A stretch of DNA of 64,000 nucleotides from sequence record OP555982.1, one strand, 5' to 3'. The translations under genes and the position numbers were made by a program. The stretch's first letter is position 1, and each line of letters opens with the position of its first letter. Shown here one piece after another: positions 12,986 through 18,520 of the stretch. The notes below the pieces were generated by a model, which had not been told where the DNA came from, did not search any database, and worked only from the letters and a program-made list of their open reading frames with translations. The DNA is from Escherichia phage vB_EcoM-UFV11.

Positions 12986-13168
12986 TTATTTTGCCCAGGG
13001 AGCCCAAGGCGGAGGGTCAAGATGGTATGAAGCTAGTTCTTCTAGAAGAGCATCTGGGGCTTCAATTCCATAATTCTGTAATACTATACGGTACTCTTTC
13101 TTATAATCACTAGAATCATTCTGGATATTCGTAGAATGATTATCTTCTAACATCTCAAATAAATCCAT
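12986..13168 (-). CDS. hypothetical protein
   Basis: 60-aa ORF. Confidence 0.45.
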   Translation of the reverse strand: MDLFEMLEDNHSTNIQNDSSDYKKEYRIVLQNYGIEAPDALLEELASYHLDPPPWAPWAK

Positions 13169-13176
13169 ACTAATTC

Positions 13177-13647
13177 CTAGCGATAAAAACCAAATTGACG
13201 ATTAGCTTCAATAATCTTTCTTTCTTCTTCGGACATTCTCCAGCGTAGTCCAACATCAAAATGAGCCCAGACCATCTTAACAAATGCATTTATATCTTTA
13301 ATATCTTCAATAATGAATGTTTTACTTTTAGAAGGTTGACTCGCTAATTTAACTTTATCGTCTTCAAACAGGTCAAAAAGACTATATTCATGAGCTCTTT
13401 TATAGCCTTTAATAGTTAAAGCTTCGGAAGAAGAAAACGGCGAATCAGTATTCTGCAAAATATCTTCAGTATGCTTTATAATTAGAATAACATTTTCTGG
13501 ATATTTTCTTTCTTTTATATCTTTAATTAAAATATCCGGATTTTCTGCTAAAGGAATAATTAATGAGCACTTTTTATCAAGTGTATTTACTGATTTACCT
13601 TCTTTAGACATAAATTCTATTGAATAATGTTTTGCTACTTCAATCAT
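13177..13647 (-). CDS. hypothetical protein
   Basis: 156-aa ORF. Confidence 0.55.
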
Positions 13648-13800
13648 GTGATTTCCTTTTGCCTACTAATGGACCGTCAGGAATTTTATTTTCCTGAATG
13701 TATTTCTCATTTTCTTCCATCATTTTACTGCCAATTTTAAGAAGCAAATCCATTGCTTCATTTGCTTTAGCCTTGGCCTCTTCCAGCGTCATATCTTTGT

Positions 13801-14004
13801 TCATGATTTATCACCATAGATGTCTCTCATCAATTTAAGCGCTGAGCGTTCTAATTTCTTTTCTTTCTCAGCACTAATCATTGATTTCATCCATTCTTCT
13901 GATTCGTTCTGCATTTCTTTATTTGCTTGTTCAACCCAACCATCATCAATATACATTGAGTTTGGTCTATTAAACCATTCAAGAATCTTCTTGAGAGCTT
14001 TCAT
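13801..14004 (-). CDS. hypothetical protein
   Basis: 67-aa ORF. Confidence 0.45.
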
Positions 14005-14464
14005 TTATTTTACCTAAAACAATAGTATGGACACCGTCAAATTTATGAATTTTTAGCAAATTAGGATTTAAATTATTCCATAAAGAGGTAATAAAATATG
14101 ATAGCGCACTTTCGTCCGTAATTATAAATTTATTTCCCTTATCAATTTTCCAGTCATATATTGAATCATATGAATAGAAGGATAACGGTTTATTGTTATA
14201 GTATGCTTTAGCAACATCAATATAGTTAGATTTAGTAAATGCTTGAATTGCCATAAATGGAGAATTTTGTACAGTTTCAATAATTCCGATCTTTTTAAGT
14301 TTTATTTCAACATCTTCTGGAACTGGCATTGAAATAAAATCTTCTACTAGATACATGTTATTGTCATATCTTTTATCAATCATTACTGCTACGGTAATTG
14401 GAACATCCTTGACAAACGCCATACTAATACTATTGATAGACATTTCAAACAAAATCGCTTCCAT
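13979..14464 (-). CDS. hypothetical protein
   Basis: start moved to ATG at 14464 with SD GAGGA 4 nt upstream. Confidence 0.5.
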
Positions 14465-14472
14465 AATTTTCC

Positions 14473-14814
14473 TCAATCGCAAGATGTAGATGAACAACTA
14501 GAATCACAAGAACTTCCACATGAATCGCCCGTCCATACATGAACAGGAACATTAGTATCATATGAATCAGAACTAGACTGTGTATTCTGTGCATTAGATG
14601 ATGTAGTAGGTGTTGACCAGCGCCAAGGATTTTTATAATATTCTTGGGCTTCTTCATAAGTCATAGTAACTGCTTCTACTGTTCCATCTCCCATATAAAC
14701 ATATTCAACTACAGTTAAAGGAAGATAGTCATTTGAAATAGGAACTACACCTTCTCCGGGAGTTGTAGAGAAAAAATCTGTAAAGAAATTTTTAAACCAA
14801 TTAAAGATAAACAT
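14473..14814 (-). CDS. hypothetical protein with Ser/Cys-rich C-terminal tail
   Basis: 113-aa ORF ending [18 protein letters not shown]. Confidence 0.5.
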
Positions 14815-15020
14815 TACAAAAAGCCTCTTTTGAATTCGACTTGTTTATCGCCATAATCATATCGAATCTCTGCGTTAAATTCAACAGAACCATCTGCGTA
14901 CATCATAAATGAATGCACAACAACTTCTGTAGACCATGGTTGCAATTCATATTTCTTCATTACATGCCGTGAAATGATAATATCTAAATCTTCATTTGGT
15001 TTAATCCAACGATTTAACAT
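14814..15020 (-). CDS. hypothetical protein
   Basis: 68-aa ORF, SD AGAGGAG, downstream of early promoter. Confidence 0.5.
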   Translation of the reverse strand: MLNRWIKPNEDLDIIISRHVMKKYELQPWSTEVVVHSFMMYADGSVEFNAEIRYDYGDKQVEFKRGFL

Positions 15021-15046: not shown

Positions 15047-15076
15047 ATTATACCATACTCATTTTGGAAAGTAAAC
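15047..15076 (-). promoter_or_regulatory. T4-type early promoter
   Basis: minus strand GTTTACTTTCCAAAATGAGTATGGTATAAT. Confidence 0.6.
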
Positions 15077-15090
15077 CGGTAAAATGAAAA

Positions 15091-15112
15091 AAGGACTCCC
15101 GAAGGAGTCCTT
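15091..15112 (-). terminator. hairpin terminator GGACUCC-UUCG-GGAGUCC plus U-run
   Basis: perfect 7-bp stem with UUCG loop after soc. Confidence 0.6.
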
Positions 15113-15118
15113 GAATTA

Positions 15119-15355
15119 TTAACCACCTATTTCTGTGGGTGTAAACATTGCAGCATTCTTAGTTTTCCAGTCAGCTGCATCAGAAACTACAGTAGAATAT
15201 GCCGCCTTTTCAGAAGGAAAGGTCTGATAATGAGAATCTGCAATACGATGCTCGTTAGAATAAATTTCAAACGGAACAGAAACTTCCATACCTTTAACTT
15301 CTTTGCCTTCACCTGTTGGATGAGTAAAGGTCTTGATGTTAACGAAACCACCCAT
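15119..15355 (-). CDS. soc: small outer capsid protein Soc
   Basis: 78-aa ORF with HYQTFPSEKAAYSTV motif; late promoter upstream. Confidence 0.8.
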   Translation of the reverse strand: MGGFVNIKTFTHPTGEGKEVKGMEVSVPFEIYSNEHRIADSHYQTFPSEKAAYSTVVSDAADWKTKNAAMFTPTEIGG

Positions 15356-15386
15356 AATAAACTCCTTTATTGTTTAATTACAGGTG

Positions 15387-15394
15387 TATTTATA
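15387..15394 (-). promoter_or_regulatory. T4 late promoter TATAAATA
   Basis: exact TATAAATA on minus strand ~32 nt upstream of soc ATG. Confidence 0.6.
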
Positions 15395-15536
15395 ACTTAC
15401 AATTTAGCGGCTTTCCAGAGTTGTTCAATAATCTCTTGGTCTATTTCTTTAGTTATTTCATTACGTAATAAAGCAGTAAGGGCTTTCGCCCTTTTCTTAT
15501 TCAACTTTTTGAGTTGGCGTTTATTTAAACGGGACA

Positions 15537-16055
15537 TTAATAACCTCGGTCTTGACGTGCGAAATTTTCAGCATTTTTCAGATAATAAAGTTTAAAGATT
15601 TCTTCTGCTGTAAGACCAAGACCCTGGAACATATTCAGAACGAAATGAAGAATATCAATCATTTCAAATTTAATTTCTAACTGGTCTTGTGGAGACAAAT
15701 CAGTAATCAGAGTTTCACGACGTTCACCATGCTGCGACTTCCAAGGTTTCCATACAGCAGATGCGTCTTTTTCACCATTACTCATACCACCAAGAGAAGT
15801 CAGAAGTTCACGGAATTCATCGTCAATATAATCTTTCTGATTACGCAACCAATCAACAACTTCACCGGCAGTAGCTAAGTCATCAGGATGACGATTATAT
15901 TCAGGTTTATCTTTAGCTAAACGAACCTGCAAAGATTTCTGCATATCAAGCATTACCTGCAGCGGGTCTTTTTCATCGCCGAGAATATCCCAATATTCAT
16001 TTTGAGCTTTATCAGCGCCTTCAATCAGTTGTGAACATTCGTTAAAGTAAGCCAT
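15537..16055 (-). CDS. 56: dCTPase/dUTPase gp56 (172 aa)
   Basis: ORF track begins at upstream GTG; ATG at 16053-16055 gives MAYFNECSQLIEGADKAQNEYWDILGD, T4 gp56-like. Confidence 0.85.
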   Translation of the reverse strand: MAYFNECSQLIEGADKAQNEYWDILGDEKDPLQVMLDMQKSLQVRLAKDKPEYNRHPDDLATAGEVVDWLRNQKDYIDDEFRELLTSLGGMSNGEKDASAVWKPWKSQHGERRETLITDLSPQDQLEIKFEMIDILHFVLNMFQGLGLTAEEIFKLYYLKNAENFARQDRGY

Positions 16056-16126
16056 TATTTTTCCTTTCAATTCATGGGTTAGTAGATTAATTATACAATA
16101 AATATATAAAGCAATAAGGAGGACAT

Positions 16127-16327
16127 ATGGTACAAAAATTAATGGCACTTGTTAATGCCATCAAAGGTAATAAGAAACGTATAGCTTTTACTATTTCTGC
16201 TATGGTAGGAATTTTACTCTGGAACTTTATTTTATCACCAATTGCAATTGCGCATGGTGTTAATATTCCAGTAGTTACTCTTGATACATTCGTAGATCTA
16301 GCATTTGCTTTAGTTGGGTTGATTTAA
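16127..16327 (+). CDS. hypothetical small membrane protein (plus strand)
   Basis: 66-aa hydrophobic ORF; strong SD AAGGAGG 5 nt before ATG; between 56 and 61. Confidence 0.5.
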   Translation: MVQKLMALVNAIKGNKKRIAFTISAMVGILLWNFILSPIAIAHGVNIPVVTLDTFVDLAFALVGLI

Positions 16328-17352
16328 ATCTTAGCATATTTAGATAGCCGCATTTTAGCCATCAACCCCTGGGCAATATTATTTTTCATATATTCCATAA
16401 TTTGTTCAGGGGTTGCACCTTCCTTTCTAATCATATCATTAACATCTTTAGATTTCCAGGGAGATTTATCCCAAAACATAACCCTTTCTCCTGCATCAAC
16501 TAATTTAGTCATTCGTTTGATAGTGTCAGGGTGACGAGGTTCATTATCTAAAACCCACACTCGTCTATCTTTAAATGGAACAATTTCTAGGTCTAATTGA
16601 CCACCCGTAATAGCTATACCATTTTCAATAAAAAGTGAATCTATAGGTCCTTCTAGAACATATACATCGCCATCTTTAACTCGTTCGACTCCATAGATTT
16701 TTGTTGCCTCAGGATAAGCTTTAATGGTGATATATTTTTGAGGAGCATTTTTCTTTAATGCACGCCCTTGAAACGACTCGGCTTTTCCGTTAGCATTATA
16801 AATTGGAATAACAAGACGAGGCTCAGGTATTTCCTTTTTATATGTTCCCGGTGCTATGCTATTAACCAATTTAGGCCATTCGGTTGTAAACCAAAGATAT
16901 TTCCATTTATCCTTTGGAATACAACGAGCTTTTACGTATTTTATAATTGGATGGTCTTCCGCCAGTTTATCTAATCTAACACATGACGGAAGAGATTTAA
17001 TTATTTTCTTCTCAGGTTGTTTAGGAAGTTCTTTAGGTTTTTCTACTGGACGACTTTTACCTTTTTCTTTTCTTATTTCAAAGATATACTCACGATATAA
17101 ATCAGGTTCAAACTCCTTTAAATATATTCCGATTGGTGCGTGATAGTTACAGTTATAACAATGAATATTTCCTTCATTATTATCACCATAATACCATCCA
17201 CGAGCTTTATTCTGGTCGGTTTTTGAATCTCCACAAACGGGGCATCTAAACCGCAATTTAAAAGTTGAACTATTATTTACTTGTGTGAATTTAGGTAAAT
17301 GAGCCAATGCACGATACGCAAACTCATTATCAATCCAAGGTATTGATGACAT
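16324..17352 (-). CDS. 61: DNA primase gp61 (342 aa)
   Basis: 342-aa ORF; zinc-ribbon CPVCGDSK...CYNCNYH and TOPRIM-like region. Confidence 0.93.
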   Translation of the reverse strand: MSSIPWIDNEFAYRALAHLPKFTQVNNSSTFKLRFRCPVCGDSKTDQNKARGWYYGDNNEGNIHCYNCNYHAPIGIYLKEFEPDLYREYIFEIRKEKGKSRPVEKPKELPKQPEKKIIKSLPSCVRLDKLAEDHPIIKYVKARCIPKDKWKYLWFTTEWPKLVNSIAPGTYKKEIPEPRLVIPIYNANGKAESFQGRALKKNAPQKYITIKAYPEATKIYGVERVKDGDVYVLEGPIDSLFIENGIAITGGQLDLEIVPFKDRRVWVLDNEPRHPDTIKRMTKLVDAGERVMFWDKSPWKSKDVNDMIRKEGATPEQIMEYMKNNIAQGLMAKMRLSKYAKI

Positions 17353-17354
17353 TT

Positions 17355-17519
17355 TTACTCTTCTTTTTCTTTAGATTCCTCTTTTTTCTTTTTAGGAATC
17401 TGTTCAGGACCTTTATTTACTACAGCACCTGATGTTGTTCCAGTAGAGATATTTTCAGGATTACCACCTGAATCTCCAGCAACCATATCTTCTTTAATAA
17501 ATTCTTTATATGTTTTCAT
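17355..17519 (-). CDS. small protein with internal-protein-like N-terminus MKTYKEFIKE
   Basis: 55-aa ORF, Lys/Glu-rich tail, stop 3 nt before gene 61 ATG. Confidence 0.45.
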   Translation of the reverse strand: MKTYKEFIKEDMVAGDSGGNPENISTGTTSGAVVNKGPEQIPKKKKEESKEKEE

Positions 17520-17520
17520 A

Positions 17521-17877
17521 TTAACCTCTATTCATAAAAGCATTAAAAATTTGGTCATCAATCGATGGAATAGCAACTTTTTCTGCATCATTTAGCAAAT
17601 CATTAATTTCATCAGATAGCATAACACATGTACCTTTATTTCCTGTAATTGTTACTGCACAATTACGAACGTTTTCTTTATTAAATTTTAGGTTAATATT
17701 TTCGTAATGAAAATCCTTTAATGCTGAATATATTTTTAAAATAAAATTGTCTTTTACTACAATAAACCCAACCTCACTATTAAAACGTGGTTCATGGAAA
17801 CTGTAATAAACCTTTTCATCTATAAAATCGTATGAAATTTTTTCCATTTTTAAATATGAAAATTCAGAACTATACAT
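17521..17877 (-). CDS. hypothetical protein, paralog of 17879-18520
   Basis: 118-aa ORF; C-terminus SIDDQIFNAFMNRG shared with neighbour. Confidence 0.55.
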   Translation of the reverse strand: MYSSEFSYLKMEKISYDFIDEKVYYSFHEPRFNSEVGFIVVKDNFILKIYSALKDFHYENINLKFNKENVRNCAVTITGNKGTCVMLSDEINDLLNDAEKVAIPSIDDQIFNAFMNRG

Positions 17878-17878
17878 A

Positions 17879-18520
17879 TTAACCTTTATTCATAAAAGCA
17901 TTAAAAATTTGATCGTCAATAGAAACTTTTACTTTAGGATGTTCTTCAAACGGTAATTCATATCCACATATTACAATTTTGTGATCGATACCAAAATACA
18001 CAGAAGCAATATGATTAATATTATTTTCAGTGAAATCTAAATCAACATCAATATCTTTTTGACTAACGCTCAAAGGATAATTAATACGAATAATTCGATT
18101 ATCTTTAACAAAGATTCCACCGACATACTCTGTGTTGCGTTTAAAGTTTACACGTTTCCTAAATGAAAAATATTCAGGTTCTTTATGAGCCCGACTCATA
18201 GGACACAATGAGTAGCTAGAATAAGAGATGTCAAATCCTACACCTTCAATATGAGCCAACGTGTCATGATTAAACCAATTATAATCATACGCCAAATCCA
18301 TTATATTGTAATATGTGAAAGGCACCGGATTAACATCATATATTGTACCTTTAAAATCTGCCCAGGCAACGATTTCATTATCTTTAACAATTACAAAAAT
18401 TGTGCCAATAAGATATCCACGGTTATTTTCATCAGGCGTTATATTATAACATTGTGCATCAGGAAATTTACCGTATTTAAACGGTGGATTTTTGTGCATA
18501 TAATAAATCATATTATTCAC
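17879..18520 (-). CDS. hypothetical protein
   Basis: 213-aa ORF; C-terminus VSIDDQIFNAFMNKG. Confidence 0.55.
   Translation of the reverse strand: MNNMIYYMHKNPPFKYGKFPDAQCYNITPDENNRGYLIGTIFVIVKDNEIVAWADFKGTIYDVNPVPFTYYNIMDLAYDYNWFNHDTLAHIEGVGFDISYSSYSLCPMSRAHKEPEYFSFRKRVNFKRNTEYVGGIFVKDNRIIRINYPLSVSQKDIDVDLDFTENNINHIASVYFGIDHKIVICGYELPFEEHPKVKVSIDDQIFNAFMNKG

What the first reader, a model, noticed from the sequence alone, without database searches (positions are those of the whole stretch)
14473..14814. Small protein with Ser/Cys-rich C-terminal tail
The 113-aa ORF has a hydrophobic N-terminus and ends in [18 protein letters not shown], a low-complexity Cys/Ser cluster unusual for phage early proteins. 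It could bind metal or be a site of post-translational modification.
Basis: seen in the sequence. Interest (0 to 1): 0.35.

Follow-up and report, generated by a model that had tools for sequence, protein, structure and literature searches.

The report
Phage T4 Mrh.1: conserved Cys-Asp tail
This ORF is the phage T4 early gene mrh.1, a catalogued small protein of unknown function that is mostly disordered, and its serine-rich tail ending in Cys-Asp is the most strongly conserved part of the family, so the tail is a real functional module (most likely thiol/metal-based) and not random low complexity.

Summary
Window 14473..14814 (- strand) encodes a 113-aa protein ending [18 protein letters not shown]. 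The window is a Tequatrovirus, 100% identical to phage vB_EcoM-UFV09. The ORF is the orthologue of T4 mrh.1 (3 aa differences) and belongs to Pfam DUF7206 and PHROG 2031, both of unknown function.

About 100 family members were found, all from T4-like phages of Enterobacterales and none in cellular genomes. The tail is the most constrained segment:
- 100/102 proteins end in Cys-Asp-COOH.
- 96/102 have exactly two tail Cys (four in the T4 type).
- 75% of tail Asp residues directly follow Cys or Tyr.
- In the JS98/RB69-like group, dN/dS is 0.04 for the tail and 0.18 for the rest.
- Synonymous codon changes and unrelated downstream contexts rule out a DNA-level constraint.

AlphaFold gives an N-terminal amphipathic helix, one beta-hairpin (EYVYMGDG) plus a helix, and a disordered tail. 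Published data class the T4 transcript as early and mrh.1 knock-down as "Semi-Fit".

Function is unproven. My best guess (about 0.35) is a flexible thiolate/carboxylate chelating arm whose terminal Cys-Asp binds a metal ion, free or enzyme-bound. Rivals are a redox dithiol arm, a C-terminal docking peptide or degron, and a modification site. The gene is already known; the motif description appears new. Interest is moderate.

The parts
14473..14814 (-). mrh.1 orthologue: 113-aa CDS plus TGA stop; Pfam DUF7206 / PHROG 2031
   Evidence: ORF. PF23836 E=6.5e-30, 104 bits against a cut-off of 25.6, full length. phrog_2031 E=9e-34. Same position and length as T4 mrh.1, NP_049642. dN/dS 0.06 among Tequatrovirus alleles.
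14767..14814 (-). Residues 1-16, N-terminal aromatic amphipathic helix ([16 protein letters not shown]); family consensus M-[IF]-x-W-[LF]-K-x-[LF]-F
   Evidence: AF2 helix at residues 4-15 and 3-6 in the JS98-type member. K8 and F15 are nearly invariant. Hydrophobic moment 0.49-0.60, family mean 0.47, mean z 1.0 against shuffles. It resembles the lipid-binding helices of MinD and ARF1 listed in PMC3189734.
14659..14715 (-). Residues 34-52, beta-hairpin carrying the family signature E37[10 protein letters not shown]47
   Evidence: Invariant or nearly invariant E37, Y38, Y40, M41, G42, D43, G44, E47. AF2 strands 34-40 and 46-52 with block pLDDT 77-86. The same hairpin appears in the second model.
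14632..14658 (-). Residues 53-61, short helix following the hairpin
   Evidence: AF2 helix at residues 53-61. Non-T4-type members have a longer basic helix further downstream (H60-78 in the JS98 type).
14536..14631 (-). Residues 62-93, variable linker rich in Ser/Thr/Asn/Gln and predicted disordered, ending in a short hydrophobic stretch VPVHV
   Evidence: pLDDT below 50 for residues 70-98. This is the least conserved region and is replaced by an unrelated basic segment in other genera.
14476..14535 (-). Residues 94-113, conserved acidic Ser/Cys/Asp tail [20 protein letters not shown]. Cys codons are at 14518-14520, 14506-14508, 14494-14496 and 14479-14481. The terminal Asp codon is at 14476-14478.
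   Evidence: 100/102 homologues end in CD and 95/102 in SCD. 96/102 have exactly two tail Cys. An upstream S-C-D-S-[SG] motif occurs in 87/102. 213/285 tail Asp are preceded by Cys or Tyr, against 41.5 +/- 5.6 in shuffles. Tail dN/dS is 0.04-0.05. Synonymous codon variation occurs at the conserved Cys, Asp and Ser. The tail is predicted disordered.
14824..14827 (-). GAGG Shine-Dalgarno-like element 9 nt upstream of the mrh.1 ATG. The mrh.2 stop and mrh.1 start overlap as TAATG at 14812-14816.
   Evidence: Read directly from the sequence. ORF coordinates.
14814..15020 (-). mrh.2 orthologue (68 aa, PHROG 1873, unknown function), overlapping mrh.1 by one base (TAATG), which suggests translational coupling
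   Evidence: 97% identical to T4 Mrh.2.
15047..15075 (-). Promoter-like site (TTTACT, 17-nt spacer, TG, TATAAT; 10/12 matches) upstream of mrh.2 and mrh.1. This is a consensus match only.
   Evidence: The count of promoter-like sites in the region is not above the shuffled expectation, so this is only a candidate. It agrees with the 'early' RNA class of T4 mrh.1.
15091..15112 (-). Terminator-like hairpin (9-bp stem, T-run) after soc, separating soc from the mrh.2-mrh.1 unit
   Evidence: 7 terminator-like sites against 1.2 +/- 1.1 in shuffles.
13979..14464 (-). mrh orthologue immediately downstream. Its GAGGA ribosome-binding site (14470-14474) overlaps the mrh.1 stop codon.
   Evidence: PF24070 T4_MRH E=1.7e-40. 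Annotation. Sequence. The 172-aa TTG-started version listed (to 14497) is probably an over-extension.

Best explanation
SHOWN. The ORF is a real, early-transcribed accessory gene. It is the orthologue of T4 mrh.1 and a member of the phage-only family DUF7206. The protein is a string of short conserved modules joined by disordered linkers:
- an N-terminal amphipathic helix;
- one beta-hairpin ([11 protein letters not shown]) followed by a helix;
- a flexible acidic tail built of [Cys/Tyr]-Asp-Ser units, which invariably ends in Cys-Asp with a free carboxylate.
The tail is the most strongly selected part of the protein.

INFERRED (mechanism). The tail acts as a flexible multidentate chelating arm. 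Two (in the T4 type, four) thiolates and their neighbouring Asp carboxylates and Tyr phenolates would hold a soft or borderline metal ion (Zn, Fe, possibly an Fe-S centre). The terminal unit contributes a thiol, a side-chain carboxylate and the alpha-carboxylate. The metal could be free, or it could be one already bound in a host protein's active site. In the second case the tail would work as a pseudo-substrate plug. The N-terminal helix (membrane- or partner-docking) and the hairpin would set where this happens. The result is a modest gain in phage fitness during host takeover.
For: Identity and reality of the gene:
- Window is 100% identical to phage UFV09.
- Positional and length equivalence with T4 mrh.1, 3 aa differences.
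- DUF7206 and phrog_2031 hits are full length.
- Synteny 56-soc-(mrh.2)-mrh.1-(mrh/srh)-modA.x-modB holds across genera.
- dN/dS is 0.06-0.16 and all length variants are in frame.
- T4 mrh.1 RNA is classed 'early'.
- CRISPRi-ART knock-down is 'Semi-Fit' (score 0.79, adjusted p 0.069), while mrh.2, mrh, srh and soc are 'Not Fit'.

The tail as the functional end:
- CD-COOH in 100/102 members, and exactly two tail Cys in 96/102.
- No Cys elsewhere in 95/102, and no Lys/Arg/Glu/His in the last 25 residues in 93/102.
- Tail dN/dS is 0.04 against 0.18 for the rest of the protein.
- Synonymous TGT/TGC, GAT/GAC and TCN/AGY changes, with three unrelated downstream contexts.
- A stand-alone 58-aa gene in Citrobacter phage Ci1 keeps only a basic segment plus the tail.

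Chelator reading:
- Asp is paired with Cys or Tyr five times more often than in shuffled tails.
- Extra Cys were gained independently in several lineages: 4 in the T4 type, 3 in P0052 and P0098.
- The tail is disordered, hence adaptable.
- From general knowledge: conserved Cys pairs in cytoplasmic proteins are most often metal ligands. A thiol next to a free C-terminal carboxylate is the classic zinc-binding arrangement of captopril- and thiorphan-type inhibitors.
Against: No metal-binding experiment or computation was possible, so the mechanism rests on sequence logic alone.
- The Cys spacing is loose (4-12 residues, mode 6) and there is no CxxC knuckle or known metal-site signature.
- Pfam, NCBIfam, PDB sequence searches and Foldseek give no link to any metal-binding family.
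- The strict positioning at the very C-terminus would be explained equally well by a peptide-binding pocket on a partner protein.
- The Ser richness is not explained by chelation.
- The fitness effect in T4 is weak and borderline significant.
- The protein was not classified in shotgun proteomics. Its tryptic peptides of 8, 53, 4 and 48 aa make that uninformative.
- The amphipathicity of the N-terminal helix is only moderate (mean z about 1).
Confidence: 0.35

Rival explanations
1. C-terminal docking peptide or degron. The free ...S-C-D-COOH end is a short linear motif read by a pocket on a host (or phage) protein, such as a protease or unfoldase, an adaptor, or a carboxylate-clamp type domain. 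No metal is involved. Mrh.1 would either be targeted for rapid turnover or would competitively occupy that partner.
For: The motif sits at a fixed distance from the C-terminus in 100/102 members, and Asp is replaced only by Asn. The tail is disordered, as expected for a linear motif. The tail persists without the N-terminal modules in the Ci1-type mini-protein. The modular 'beads on a string' architecture is typical of disordered binders.
Against: This reading does not explain why a second Cys-Asp unit 4-12 residues upstream is equally conserved. It does not explain why Asp is systematically paired with Cys or Tyr, or why extra Cys were gained repeatedly. No known bacterial C-terminal recognition motif (ssrA-like LAA, PDZ ligands) resembles SCD; this comparison is from general knowledge and was not tested.
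Confidence: 0.2
2. Redox-active dithiol arm or decoy. The two tail cysteines cycle between dithiol and disulfide, like the flexible C-terminal Cys pair of class Ia ribonucleotide reductase alpha subunits. The tail would be a substrate, competitor or trap for thioredoxin or glutaredoxin (host Trx/Grx or T4 NrdC).
For: E. coli NrdA ends ...DDG-C-E-S-G-A-C-K-I and T4 NrdA ends ...ADD-C-A-A-C-K-L. Both are acidic, flexible C-terminal tails with a Cys pair within the last 4-8 residues. The first Cys of E. coli NrdA is followed by E-S-G, which compares with C-D-S-G or C-D-S-S in the Mrh.1 family. The T4-type tail has CX3C spacings, closer to those of RNR.
Against: The family spacing (mode 6, up to 12 residues) and the terminal residue (Asp against Lys-Ile/Leu) differ from RNR tails. 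The conserved Tyr-Asp units and the fixed free carboxylate have no role in a simple dithiol shuttle. There is no sequence homology, so the resemblance is one of design only.
Confidence: 0.15
3. Substrate for post-translational modification. One possibility is a RiPP-like core (Ser/Cys dehydration, cyclisation, azole formation). Another is Ser/Tyr phosphorylation. A third is ADP-ribosylation by the neighbouring ModA, ModB or Alt enzymes.
For: The layout of a conserved N-terminal part followed by a Ser/Cys-rich C-terminal 'core' mirrors RiPP precursors. The tail gives a weak hit to the FxLD lanthipeptide precursor family TIGR04363 (E=0.034, 14.1 bits). The gene always lies next to ADP-ribosyltransferase genes: modA/modB in most phages and an Alt-like ART plus an ADP-ribosylglycohydrolase in Ci1.
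Against: The TIGR04363 hit is far below its cut-off (30 bits) and is driven by composition. T4 and E. coli K-12 encode no lanthipeptide synthetase or cyclodehydratase, and the T4 ADP-ribosyltransferases are Arg-specific, whereas the tail has no Arg; both points are general knowledge and were not tested here. In RiPPs the core is usually more variable than the leader, whereas here the tail is the most conserved part.
Confidence: 0.1
4. No protein-level function of the tail. The apparent conservation would reflect low-complexity drift, or DNA/RNA constraints such as the ribosome-binding site of the downstream mrh gene overlapping the mrh.1 stop codon.
For: In the window the mrh.1 stop TGA is part of the GAGGA ribosome-binding site of mrh. 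Occasional frameshifted or truncated alleles exist (P0006, L008/L021, P0005), so the gene is dispensable.
Against: The terminal Cys-Asp is kept with TAA or TGA stops and three unrelated downstream sequences. The conserved residues show synonymous codon changes, including TCN/AGY switches. Tail dN/dS is 0.04-0.05. The Cys/Tyr-Asp pairing is far outside the shuffle range.
Confidence: 0.02

Closest known systems
T4 Mrh.1 (NP_049642, UniProt P20706) / Pfam DUF7206 (PF23836) / PHROG 2031
   Same: It is an orthologue: 110/113 identical residues, the same 342-nt length, and the same position between mrh.2 and mrh. It matches the family model end to end.
   Different: Nothing of substance differs. The family itself has no assigned function. 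No main-text literature on it was found in the held library.
C-terminal redox tail of class Ia ribonucleotide reductase alpha (E. coli NrdA ...CESGACKI; T4 NrdA ...CAACKL)
   Same: Both are flexible acidic C-terminal tails with two Cys close to the free end. The C-[DE]-S-G context is shared with E. coli NrdA.
   Different: There is no homology. Cys spacing is 2-4 residues in RNR against 4-12 in Mrh.1. RNR tails end in Lys-Ile/Leu and not Asp. Mrh.1 has no catalytic domain to serve and carries extra Tyr-Asp units.
RiPP precursors with Ser/Cys-rich cores (lanthipeptides, e.g. FxLD family TIGR04363; microcin B17 McbA)
   Same: Both are small proteins in which a conserved N-terminal part precedes a Ser/Cys(/Gly)-rich C-terminal segment.
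   Different: The hit is sub-threshold (14 bits against a 30-bit cut-off). T4 and E. coli K-12 have no cognate modifying enzymes (general knowledge). The tail is more conserved than the 'leader', and the protein is cytoplasmic and early-expressed with no export signal.
Amphipathic membrane-targeting helices (E. coli MinD C-terminus ...KKGFLKRLF; ARF1 N-terminus MGNIFANLFKGLFGKK; FtsY N-terminus)
   Same: The family N-terminus M-I-x-W-L-K-N-L-F-K has the same length, the same alternation of aromatic/Leu and Lys residues, and a similar hydrophobic moment (0.47 against 0.45 for the MinD MTS).
   Different: This is a resemblance only. Membrane binding was not tested, and the z-score against shuffles is modest (about 1). 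The Ci1-type mini-protein lacks the helix altogether.
Thiol-carboxylate zinc-binding groups (captopril/thiorphan-type inhibitors; the 'cysteine switch' of metalloprotease zymogens); general knowledge
   Same: A thiol one residue from a free C-terminal carboxylate, as in ...Cys-Asp-COOH, is the arrangement these inhibitors use to ligate a catalytic Zn.
   Different: This is a purely chemical analogy. No target metalloprotease has been identified and no test was done here.

Membership tests
Pfam DUF7206 (PF23836) / T4 Mrh.1 | Full-length match to the family HMM above the gathering threshold | tested here: met
   E=6.5e-30, 104.3 bits against a cut-off of 25.6; residues 3-113 match profile positions 1-107 of 107. 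phrog_2031 E=9.2e-34.
Pfam DUF7206 (PF23836) / T4 Mrh.1 | Orthologous genomic position in the T4 early region (soc - mrh.2 - mrh.1 - mrh - srh - modA.x - modB - modA) | tested here: met
   Gene order in the window is identical to the T4 annotation. The order is conserved in distant genera.
Pfam DUF7206 (PF23836) / T4 Mrh.1 | Signature motifs derived here: EYxYMGDGxxE core and a C-terminal S-C-D-S-[SG]...[SG]-C-D-COOH | tested here: met
   E37-E47 and S102-C103-D104-S105-S106 ... S111-C112-D113 are present.
Lanthipeptide precursor, FxLD family (TIGR04363) | Score above the curated NCBIfam cut-off | tested here: not met
   14.1 bits against a cut-off of 30; only residues 95-109 match.
Lanthipeptide precursor, FxLD family (TIGR04363) | Cognate modifying enzyme (LanB/C/M/KC/L-type) encoded nearby or in the host | not tested
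   Neighbouring genes within about 3 kb are soc, mrh.2, mrh, srh, modA.x and modB, none of which is a RiPP enzyme. The absence of such enzymes from the rest of T4 and from E. coli K-12 is general knowledge and was not scanned here.
Classical zinc-ribbon / zinc-finger or metallothionein-type metal sites | CxxC/CxxH knuckle pairs, or more than 15% Cys with Cys-x-Cys / Cys-Cys clusters; match to a known metal-binding family | tested here: not met
   The spacings are CX3CX3CX4C in the window and CX4-12C in the family. Cys content is 4/113. There is no Pfam, NCBIfam or PDB match to any metal-binding family. This argues against membership of known families, not against metal binding as such.
Secreted or integral membrane protein (signal peptide / transmembrane helix) | An uninterrupted hydrophobic stretch of at least 15-20 residues at the N-terminus | tested here: not met
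   The first 16 residues contain K8, N5, N9 and D13. Mean hydrophobicity is 0.25-0.52 with a hydrophobic moment of 0.49-0.60, which is amphipathic. Most homologues have only about 10 such residues before a Lys/Pro-Gly-Glu-Gly linker.
Peripheral-membrane amphipathic-helix proteins (MinD/ARF1-type targeting sequence) | Terminal helix with a high hydrophobic moment that binds lipid | tested here: inconclusive
   The moment is comparable to the MinD MTS (0.47 against 0.45), but the mean z against shuffles is only 1.0, and 54% of the 50 distinct N-termini have z above 1. The helix is predicted at low confidence. Lipid binding cannot be tested here.
Class Ia RNR alpha C-terminal redox tail | Cys pair with CX2-4C spacing, 2 residues from the C-terminus, attached to an RNR catalytic domain | tested here: not met
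   NrdA tails were read directly. Mrh.1 has a different spacing and a different terminal residue, and it has no RNR domain.

The most novel reading that the evidence does not exclude
The terminal ...Ser-Cys-Asp-COOH would be a genetically encoded thiol-carboxylate 'warhead'. Mrh.1 would be tethered at the inner membrane by its N-terminal amphipathic helix and would thread its disordered tail into a host zinc enzyme, for example a membrane metalloprotease such as FtsH (which controls sigma-32, the theme of the neighbouring mrh and srh genes) or Lit. The thiolate and the C-terminal carboxylate would ligate the catalytic metal. The upstream Cys-Asp and Tyr-Asp units would act as back-up or auxiliary ligands. 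That would be a new class of phage-encoded, intrinsically disordered metalloenzyme inhibitor.
Probability: 0.1. Interest if true: 0.7.

Novelty: already known. Interest (0 to 1): 0.38.

Why it matters
T4 is the reference lytic phage, yet close to half of its genes have no function. mrh.1 is one of only five T4 genes of purely unknown function whose knock-down gave a measurable fitness cost in the CRISPRi-ART screen.

This analysis shows that the family's selective constraint is concentrated in a 20-residue disordered tail. The tail has an invariant free Cys-Asp end and paired Cys/Tyr-Asp units. That turns a 'hypothetical protein' into a sharply testable object, using point mutants of two Cys, deletion or extension of the last residue, and a synthetic peptide for metal and partner binding.

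If the tail proves to be a metal- or thiol-based effector, it would add a new type of small disordered host-takeover factor. It would also help annotate about 100 sequence clusters in T4-like phages of Enterobacterales. If not, it remains an ordinary accessory early gene.

Tried and rejected
- Single-sequence homology searches found only close relatives: 7 hits from the word index and 12 hits in 1.84 billion representatives with exhaustive HMMER, two of them spurious Ser-rich giants. A profile was needed to reach further.
- tblastn against phage records masks residues 1-15 and 95-113 as low complexity, so it could not report on the tail.
- PDB sequence searches with the full-length profile and the tail profile found nothing. 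Foldseek of the AF2 model against PDB gave no hit with E below 1. Both models have low pTM (0.27 and 0.22), so fold comparison is meaningless beyond the hairpin.
- A tail-only profile search of the 5.8-billion-protein collection returned only the two Ci1-type mini-proteins. HMMER's bias filter evidently removed even true family members. The absence of the motif from other families is therefore not established. Two earlier attempts failed on parameter limits.
- A degenerate DNA pattern for CDS[SG]...[SG][SG]CD-stop could not be scanned in IMG/VR because it has too few fixed bases.
- The NCBIfam lanthipeptide hit was rejected as sub-threshold and compositional.
- A DNA-level explanation (the mrh ribosome-binding site overlapping the stop codon) was rejected on codon evidence.
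- Literature searches for mrh.1, DUF7206 and P20706 found no main-text mention, and one search was swamped by unrelated matches. PMC8076793 deals with Mrh, not Mrh.1. PMC12676376 is not about T4. The T4 genome review (PMC150520) is not held.
- A scan of 185,579 cellular species genomes found no relative.
Full report
**1. The observation**

The window carries an ATG-started ORF of 113 codons at 14473..14814 on the minus strand. Its product is [113 protein letters not shown], exactly as described.

The four cysteines (C99, C103, C107, C112) are all in the last 15 residues. The chance that four Cys placed at random all fall in the last 16 of 113 positions is 2.8e-4. The protein is very acidic (pI 4.05, net charge about -11). 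Apart from one spurious 27-aa ORF, no other ORF in the window ends in such a tail.

**2. What it is**

The surrounding 1.5 kb is 100% identical to Escherichia phage vB_EcoM-UFV09. It matches 718 phage records, almost all Tequatrovirus.

The neighbours on the same strand are gp61 primase, gp56 dCTPase, Soc, Mrh.2, then this ORF, then Mrh, Srh, ModA.4, ModA.3, ModA.2, ModB and ModA. This is the T4 early region. In the T4 reference annotation the gene of identical length and position is mrh.1, 'Mrh.1 hypothetical protein'. The two proteins differ at three residues: N9S, A74T and T95A.

The ORF matches Pfam DUF7206 end to end (E=6.5e-30, 104 bits, cut-off 25.6) and PHROG 2031, 'unknown function'. 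It is therefore a catalogued gene of unknown function, not a peculiarity of this genome.

**3. Is it a real, expressed gene?**

- Among Tequatrovirus alleles dN/dS is 0.06. Among the JS98/RB69-like group it is 0.16. Every length variant (318-360 nt) is a multiple of three.
- The start overlaps the mrh.2 stop (TAATG), and a GAGG lies 9 nt upstream.
- A terminator-like hairpin follows soc (15112-15091). A promoter-like site (TTTACT-17-TG-TATAAT, 15075-15047) precedes mrh.2. This is a consensus match only.
- In a published T4 multi-omics data set, mrh.1 RNA is classed 'early' and the protein class is 'NA' (PMC9697503 supplement). The missing protein class is uninformative, because trypsin gives peptides of 8, 53, 4 and 48 residues.
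- In the CRISPRi-ART screen of T4, mrh.1 is 'Semi-Fit' (score 0.79, adjusted p 0.069), whereas mrh.2, mrh, srh and soc are 'Not Fit'. The authors list it among five semi-fit genes of purely unknown function (PMC11879866 supplement).
- Occasional frameshifted or truncated alleles exist, as expected for a non-essential accessory gene.

**4. Homologue survey and the tail**

Single-sequence searches reach only close relatives. IMG/VR loci and a profile search then gave about 100 full-length members at 90% clustering. The named sources are phages of Escherichia, Shigella, Yersinia, Salmonella, Citrobacter, Serratia, Edwardsiella, Enterobacter and Cronobacter. No relative exists in 185,579 cellular species genomes.

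Identity to the window protein falls to about 26-30%, and the middle of the protein is replaced by unrelated basic segments. Three blocks persist:
- an N-terminal M-[IF]-x-W-[LF]-K-x-[LF]-F;
- a core E-Y-x-Y-M-G-D-G-x-x-E;
- the tail.

Tail statistics over the 102 full-length members:
- The last two residues are Cys-Asp in 100 and Cys-Asn in 2. The last three are Ser-Cys-Asp in 95.
- 96 have exactly two Cys in the last 25 residues. Four Cys occur only in the T4 type.
- 95 have no Cys anywhere else.
- The upstream Cys is followed by Asp-Ser-[Ser/Gly] in 87.
- The spacing between the last two Cys is 4-12 residues (mode 6).
- 93 have no Lys, Arg, Glu or His in the last 25 residues.
- Tail composition is Ser 45%, Asp 14%, Gly 12%, Cys 8% and Tyr 8%.

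The tail also has internal order. Of 285 Asp residues in 77 distinct tails, 213 directly follow Cys or Tyr. Shuffled tails give 41.5 +/- 5.6, with a maximum of 57. The tail is therefore an array of two to four [Cys/Tyr]-Asp-Ser units, mostly 5-9 residues apart, the last of which is the C-terminus itself.

The constraint acts on the protein, not the DNA. The conserved Cys, Asp and Ser codons vary synonymously (TGT/TGC, GAT/GAC, TCN/AGY). The stop codon is TGA or TAA, and three unrelated sequences follow it. Tail dN/dS is 0.04 against 0.18 for the rest of the gene in the JS98/RB69-like group.

In the window, the canonical upstream unit is S102-C103-D104-S105-S106. C99 and C107 are lineage-specific additions.

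A tail-only profile search also found a stand-alone 58-aa gene in Citrobacter phage Ci1, with a 47-aa variant, seen on 15 contigs. It has only a basic segment plus ...SSYDSCDSSSPSCD. It lies directly after a Dda-like helicase, close to an Alt-like ADP-ribosyltransferase gene. The tail module can therefore exist without the helix and the hairpin.

**5. Structure**

AlphaFold2 with a 69-sequence alignment gave mean pLDDT 59 and pTM 0.27. It predicts a helix at residues 4-15, a hairpin at 34-40 and 46-52, and a helix at 53-61 (block pLDDT 77-86). Confidence is low, with most residues below pLDDT 50, from about residue 70 to the end, tail included.

A second model of the JS98-type member agrees. 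It shows a short N-terminal helix, the same hairpin, a helix at 60-78 and a disordered tail.

No solved structure is related by sequence or by fold.

The N-terminal segment is amphipathic and not a membrane-spanning segment. Its hydrophobic moment is 0.49-0.60 in the window protein. The family mean is 0.47 and the mean z against shuffles is 1.0. Its pattern W-L-K-N-L-F-K is of the same kind as the lipid-binding helices of MinD (KKGFLKRLF) and ARF1 (MGNIFANLFKGLFGKK) tabulated in PMC3189734. That is a lead, not a demonstration.

**6. How it most likely works**

Shown: this is a small, mostly disordered, early phage protein made of short conserved modules. Its C-terminal tail is the principal target of selection, and the free Cys-Asp end is essentially invariant.

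Inferred: conserved Cys pairs in cytoplasmic proteins are most often metal ligands (general knowledge). Here each thiol (or Tyr phenol) sits next to a carboxylate. The last unit adds the alpha-carboxylate. Extra thiols were gained repeatedly in different lineages. The chain is flexible and free of competing basic residues.

My preferred reading (confidence about 0.35) is that the tail is a multidentate thiolate/carboxylate chelating arm that binds a Zn- or Fe-type ion. The ion could be free, or it could sit in a host enzyme's active site. The helix and the hairpin would provide localisation or partner specificity.

Members with two Cys might pair up to supply four thiolates, while the T4 type supplies four on its own. 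This is speculation.

The rivals are:
- a metal-independent C-terminal docking motif or degron (0.2), which explains the fixed terminus but not the paired units;
- a redox dithiol arm or thioredoxin/glutaredoxin decoy (0.15);
- a modification substrate (0.1);
- no protein-level function (0.02), which is excluded.

For the redox rival I checked the RNR alpha tails directly. E. coli NrdA ends DDGCESGACKI and T4 NrdA ends ADDCAACKL. The design is similar but the spacing and the terminal residues differ. For the modification rival, the only database support is a sub-threshold compositional hit to a lanthipeptide precursor family (14 bits against a cut-off of 30).

**7. Comparison with what is known, and novelty**

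Membership of DUF7206 / T4 Mrh.1 is met on every test: HMM score, synteny and signature motifs. Membership of known metal-site families, RiPP precursor families, secreted or transmembrane proteins and RNR tails is not met.

The gene is already known and deposited, both as T4 mrh.1 and in the identical UFV09 record. Three points appear undescribed in the literature I could search:
- the family's constraint is concentrated in a terminal [Cys/Tyr]-Asp array with an invariant Cys-Asp-COOH;
- a mini-version consisting of little more than the tail exists;
- the family is confined to T4-like phages of Enterobacterales.

**8. Verdict**

The feature is an already catalogued gene of unknown function. 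It is of moderate interest (0.38), because it is one of the few unknown T4 genes with a fitness signal and it now has a precise, cheap experimental handle.

Noticed in passing
L036 3001-3177 (Citrobacter phage Ci1, OR515478.1 168703-168879); proteins P0112 and P0113: A stand-alone 58-aa (variant 47-aa) gene consists of a basic segment plus the same tail (...SSYDSCDSSSPSCD). It lacks the N-terminal helix and the EYVYMGDG hairpin. It lies directly after a Dda-like helicase, close to an Alt-like ADP-ribosyltransferase and an ADP-ribosylglycohydrolase. It was seen on 15 contigs.
   Followed up: partly
Protein P0003 (Escherichia phage 235Ecol030PP, 164 aa): This Mrh.1 is chimeric. A T4-type N-terminal half is fused in frame to the basic middle segment typical of JS98/RB69-like phages, followed by a T4-type four-Cys tail. 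This suggests modular recombination within the gene.
   Followed up: no
window 15355-16330, compared with T4 15573-17935 (L001): tblastn finds no homologue of T4 segF or dam anywhere in the window. A 46-aa ORF (15397-15537, - strand) sits where segF lies in T4. Only a 66-aa + strand ORF (16127-16327) lies between gene 56 and gene 61, where T4 has dam.
   Followed up: partly
window 15119-15355 (soc) and 14814-15020 (mrh.2): The region shows mosaicism. The window Soc is only 47% identical to T4 Soc, although mrh.2 and mrh.1 next to it are 97% identical to T4. Conversely, IMG/VR locus L016 has Soc 99% but Mrh.2 only 60% identical to the window.
   Followed up: no
GenBank MZ291552.2 12987-13805 (window 12986-13804): The deposited record annotates modA.2, modA.3 and modA.4 as 'molybdenum ABC transporter, periplasmic molybdenum-binding protein'. 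This is evidently a confusion of the T4 gene name modA with the bacterial ModA. modA.3 is in fact a paralogue of Mrh (PF24070, E=8e-38).
   Followed up: no
window 13979-14497 (- strand) and 14445-14657 (- strand): The mechanical ORF list extends mrh to an upstream TTG (172 aa), so that it overlaps the mrh.1 tail. The annotated ATG at 14464, preceded by GAGGA, is the likely start. A 70-aa alternative-frame ORF inside mrh.1 corresponds to the reading frame entered by the frameshifted allele P0006.
   Followed up: partly
L008/L021 (IMGVR_UViG_3300006879_000208); proteins P0005, P0006 and P0009: Frameshifted or truncated mrh.1 alleles occur in a few contigs and genomes. They could be sequencing errors or genuine loss, and the latter would fit a dispensable accessory gene.
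   Followed up: no
PMC8076793 (T4 Mrh, the downstream neighbour): The authors report that recombinant Mrh forms a megadalton assembly. They mention an unpublished 3.3 A cryo-EM structure 'revealing a novel mechanism ... to respond to heat shock'. This is relevant context for the mrh.2-mrh.1-mrh-srh gene cluster.
   Followed up: no
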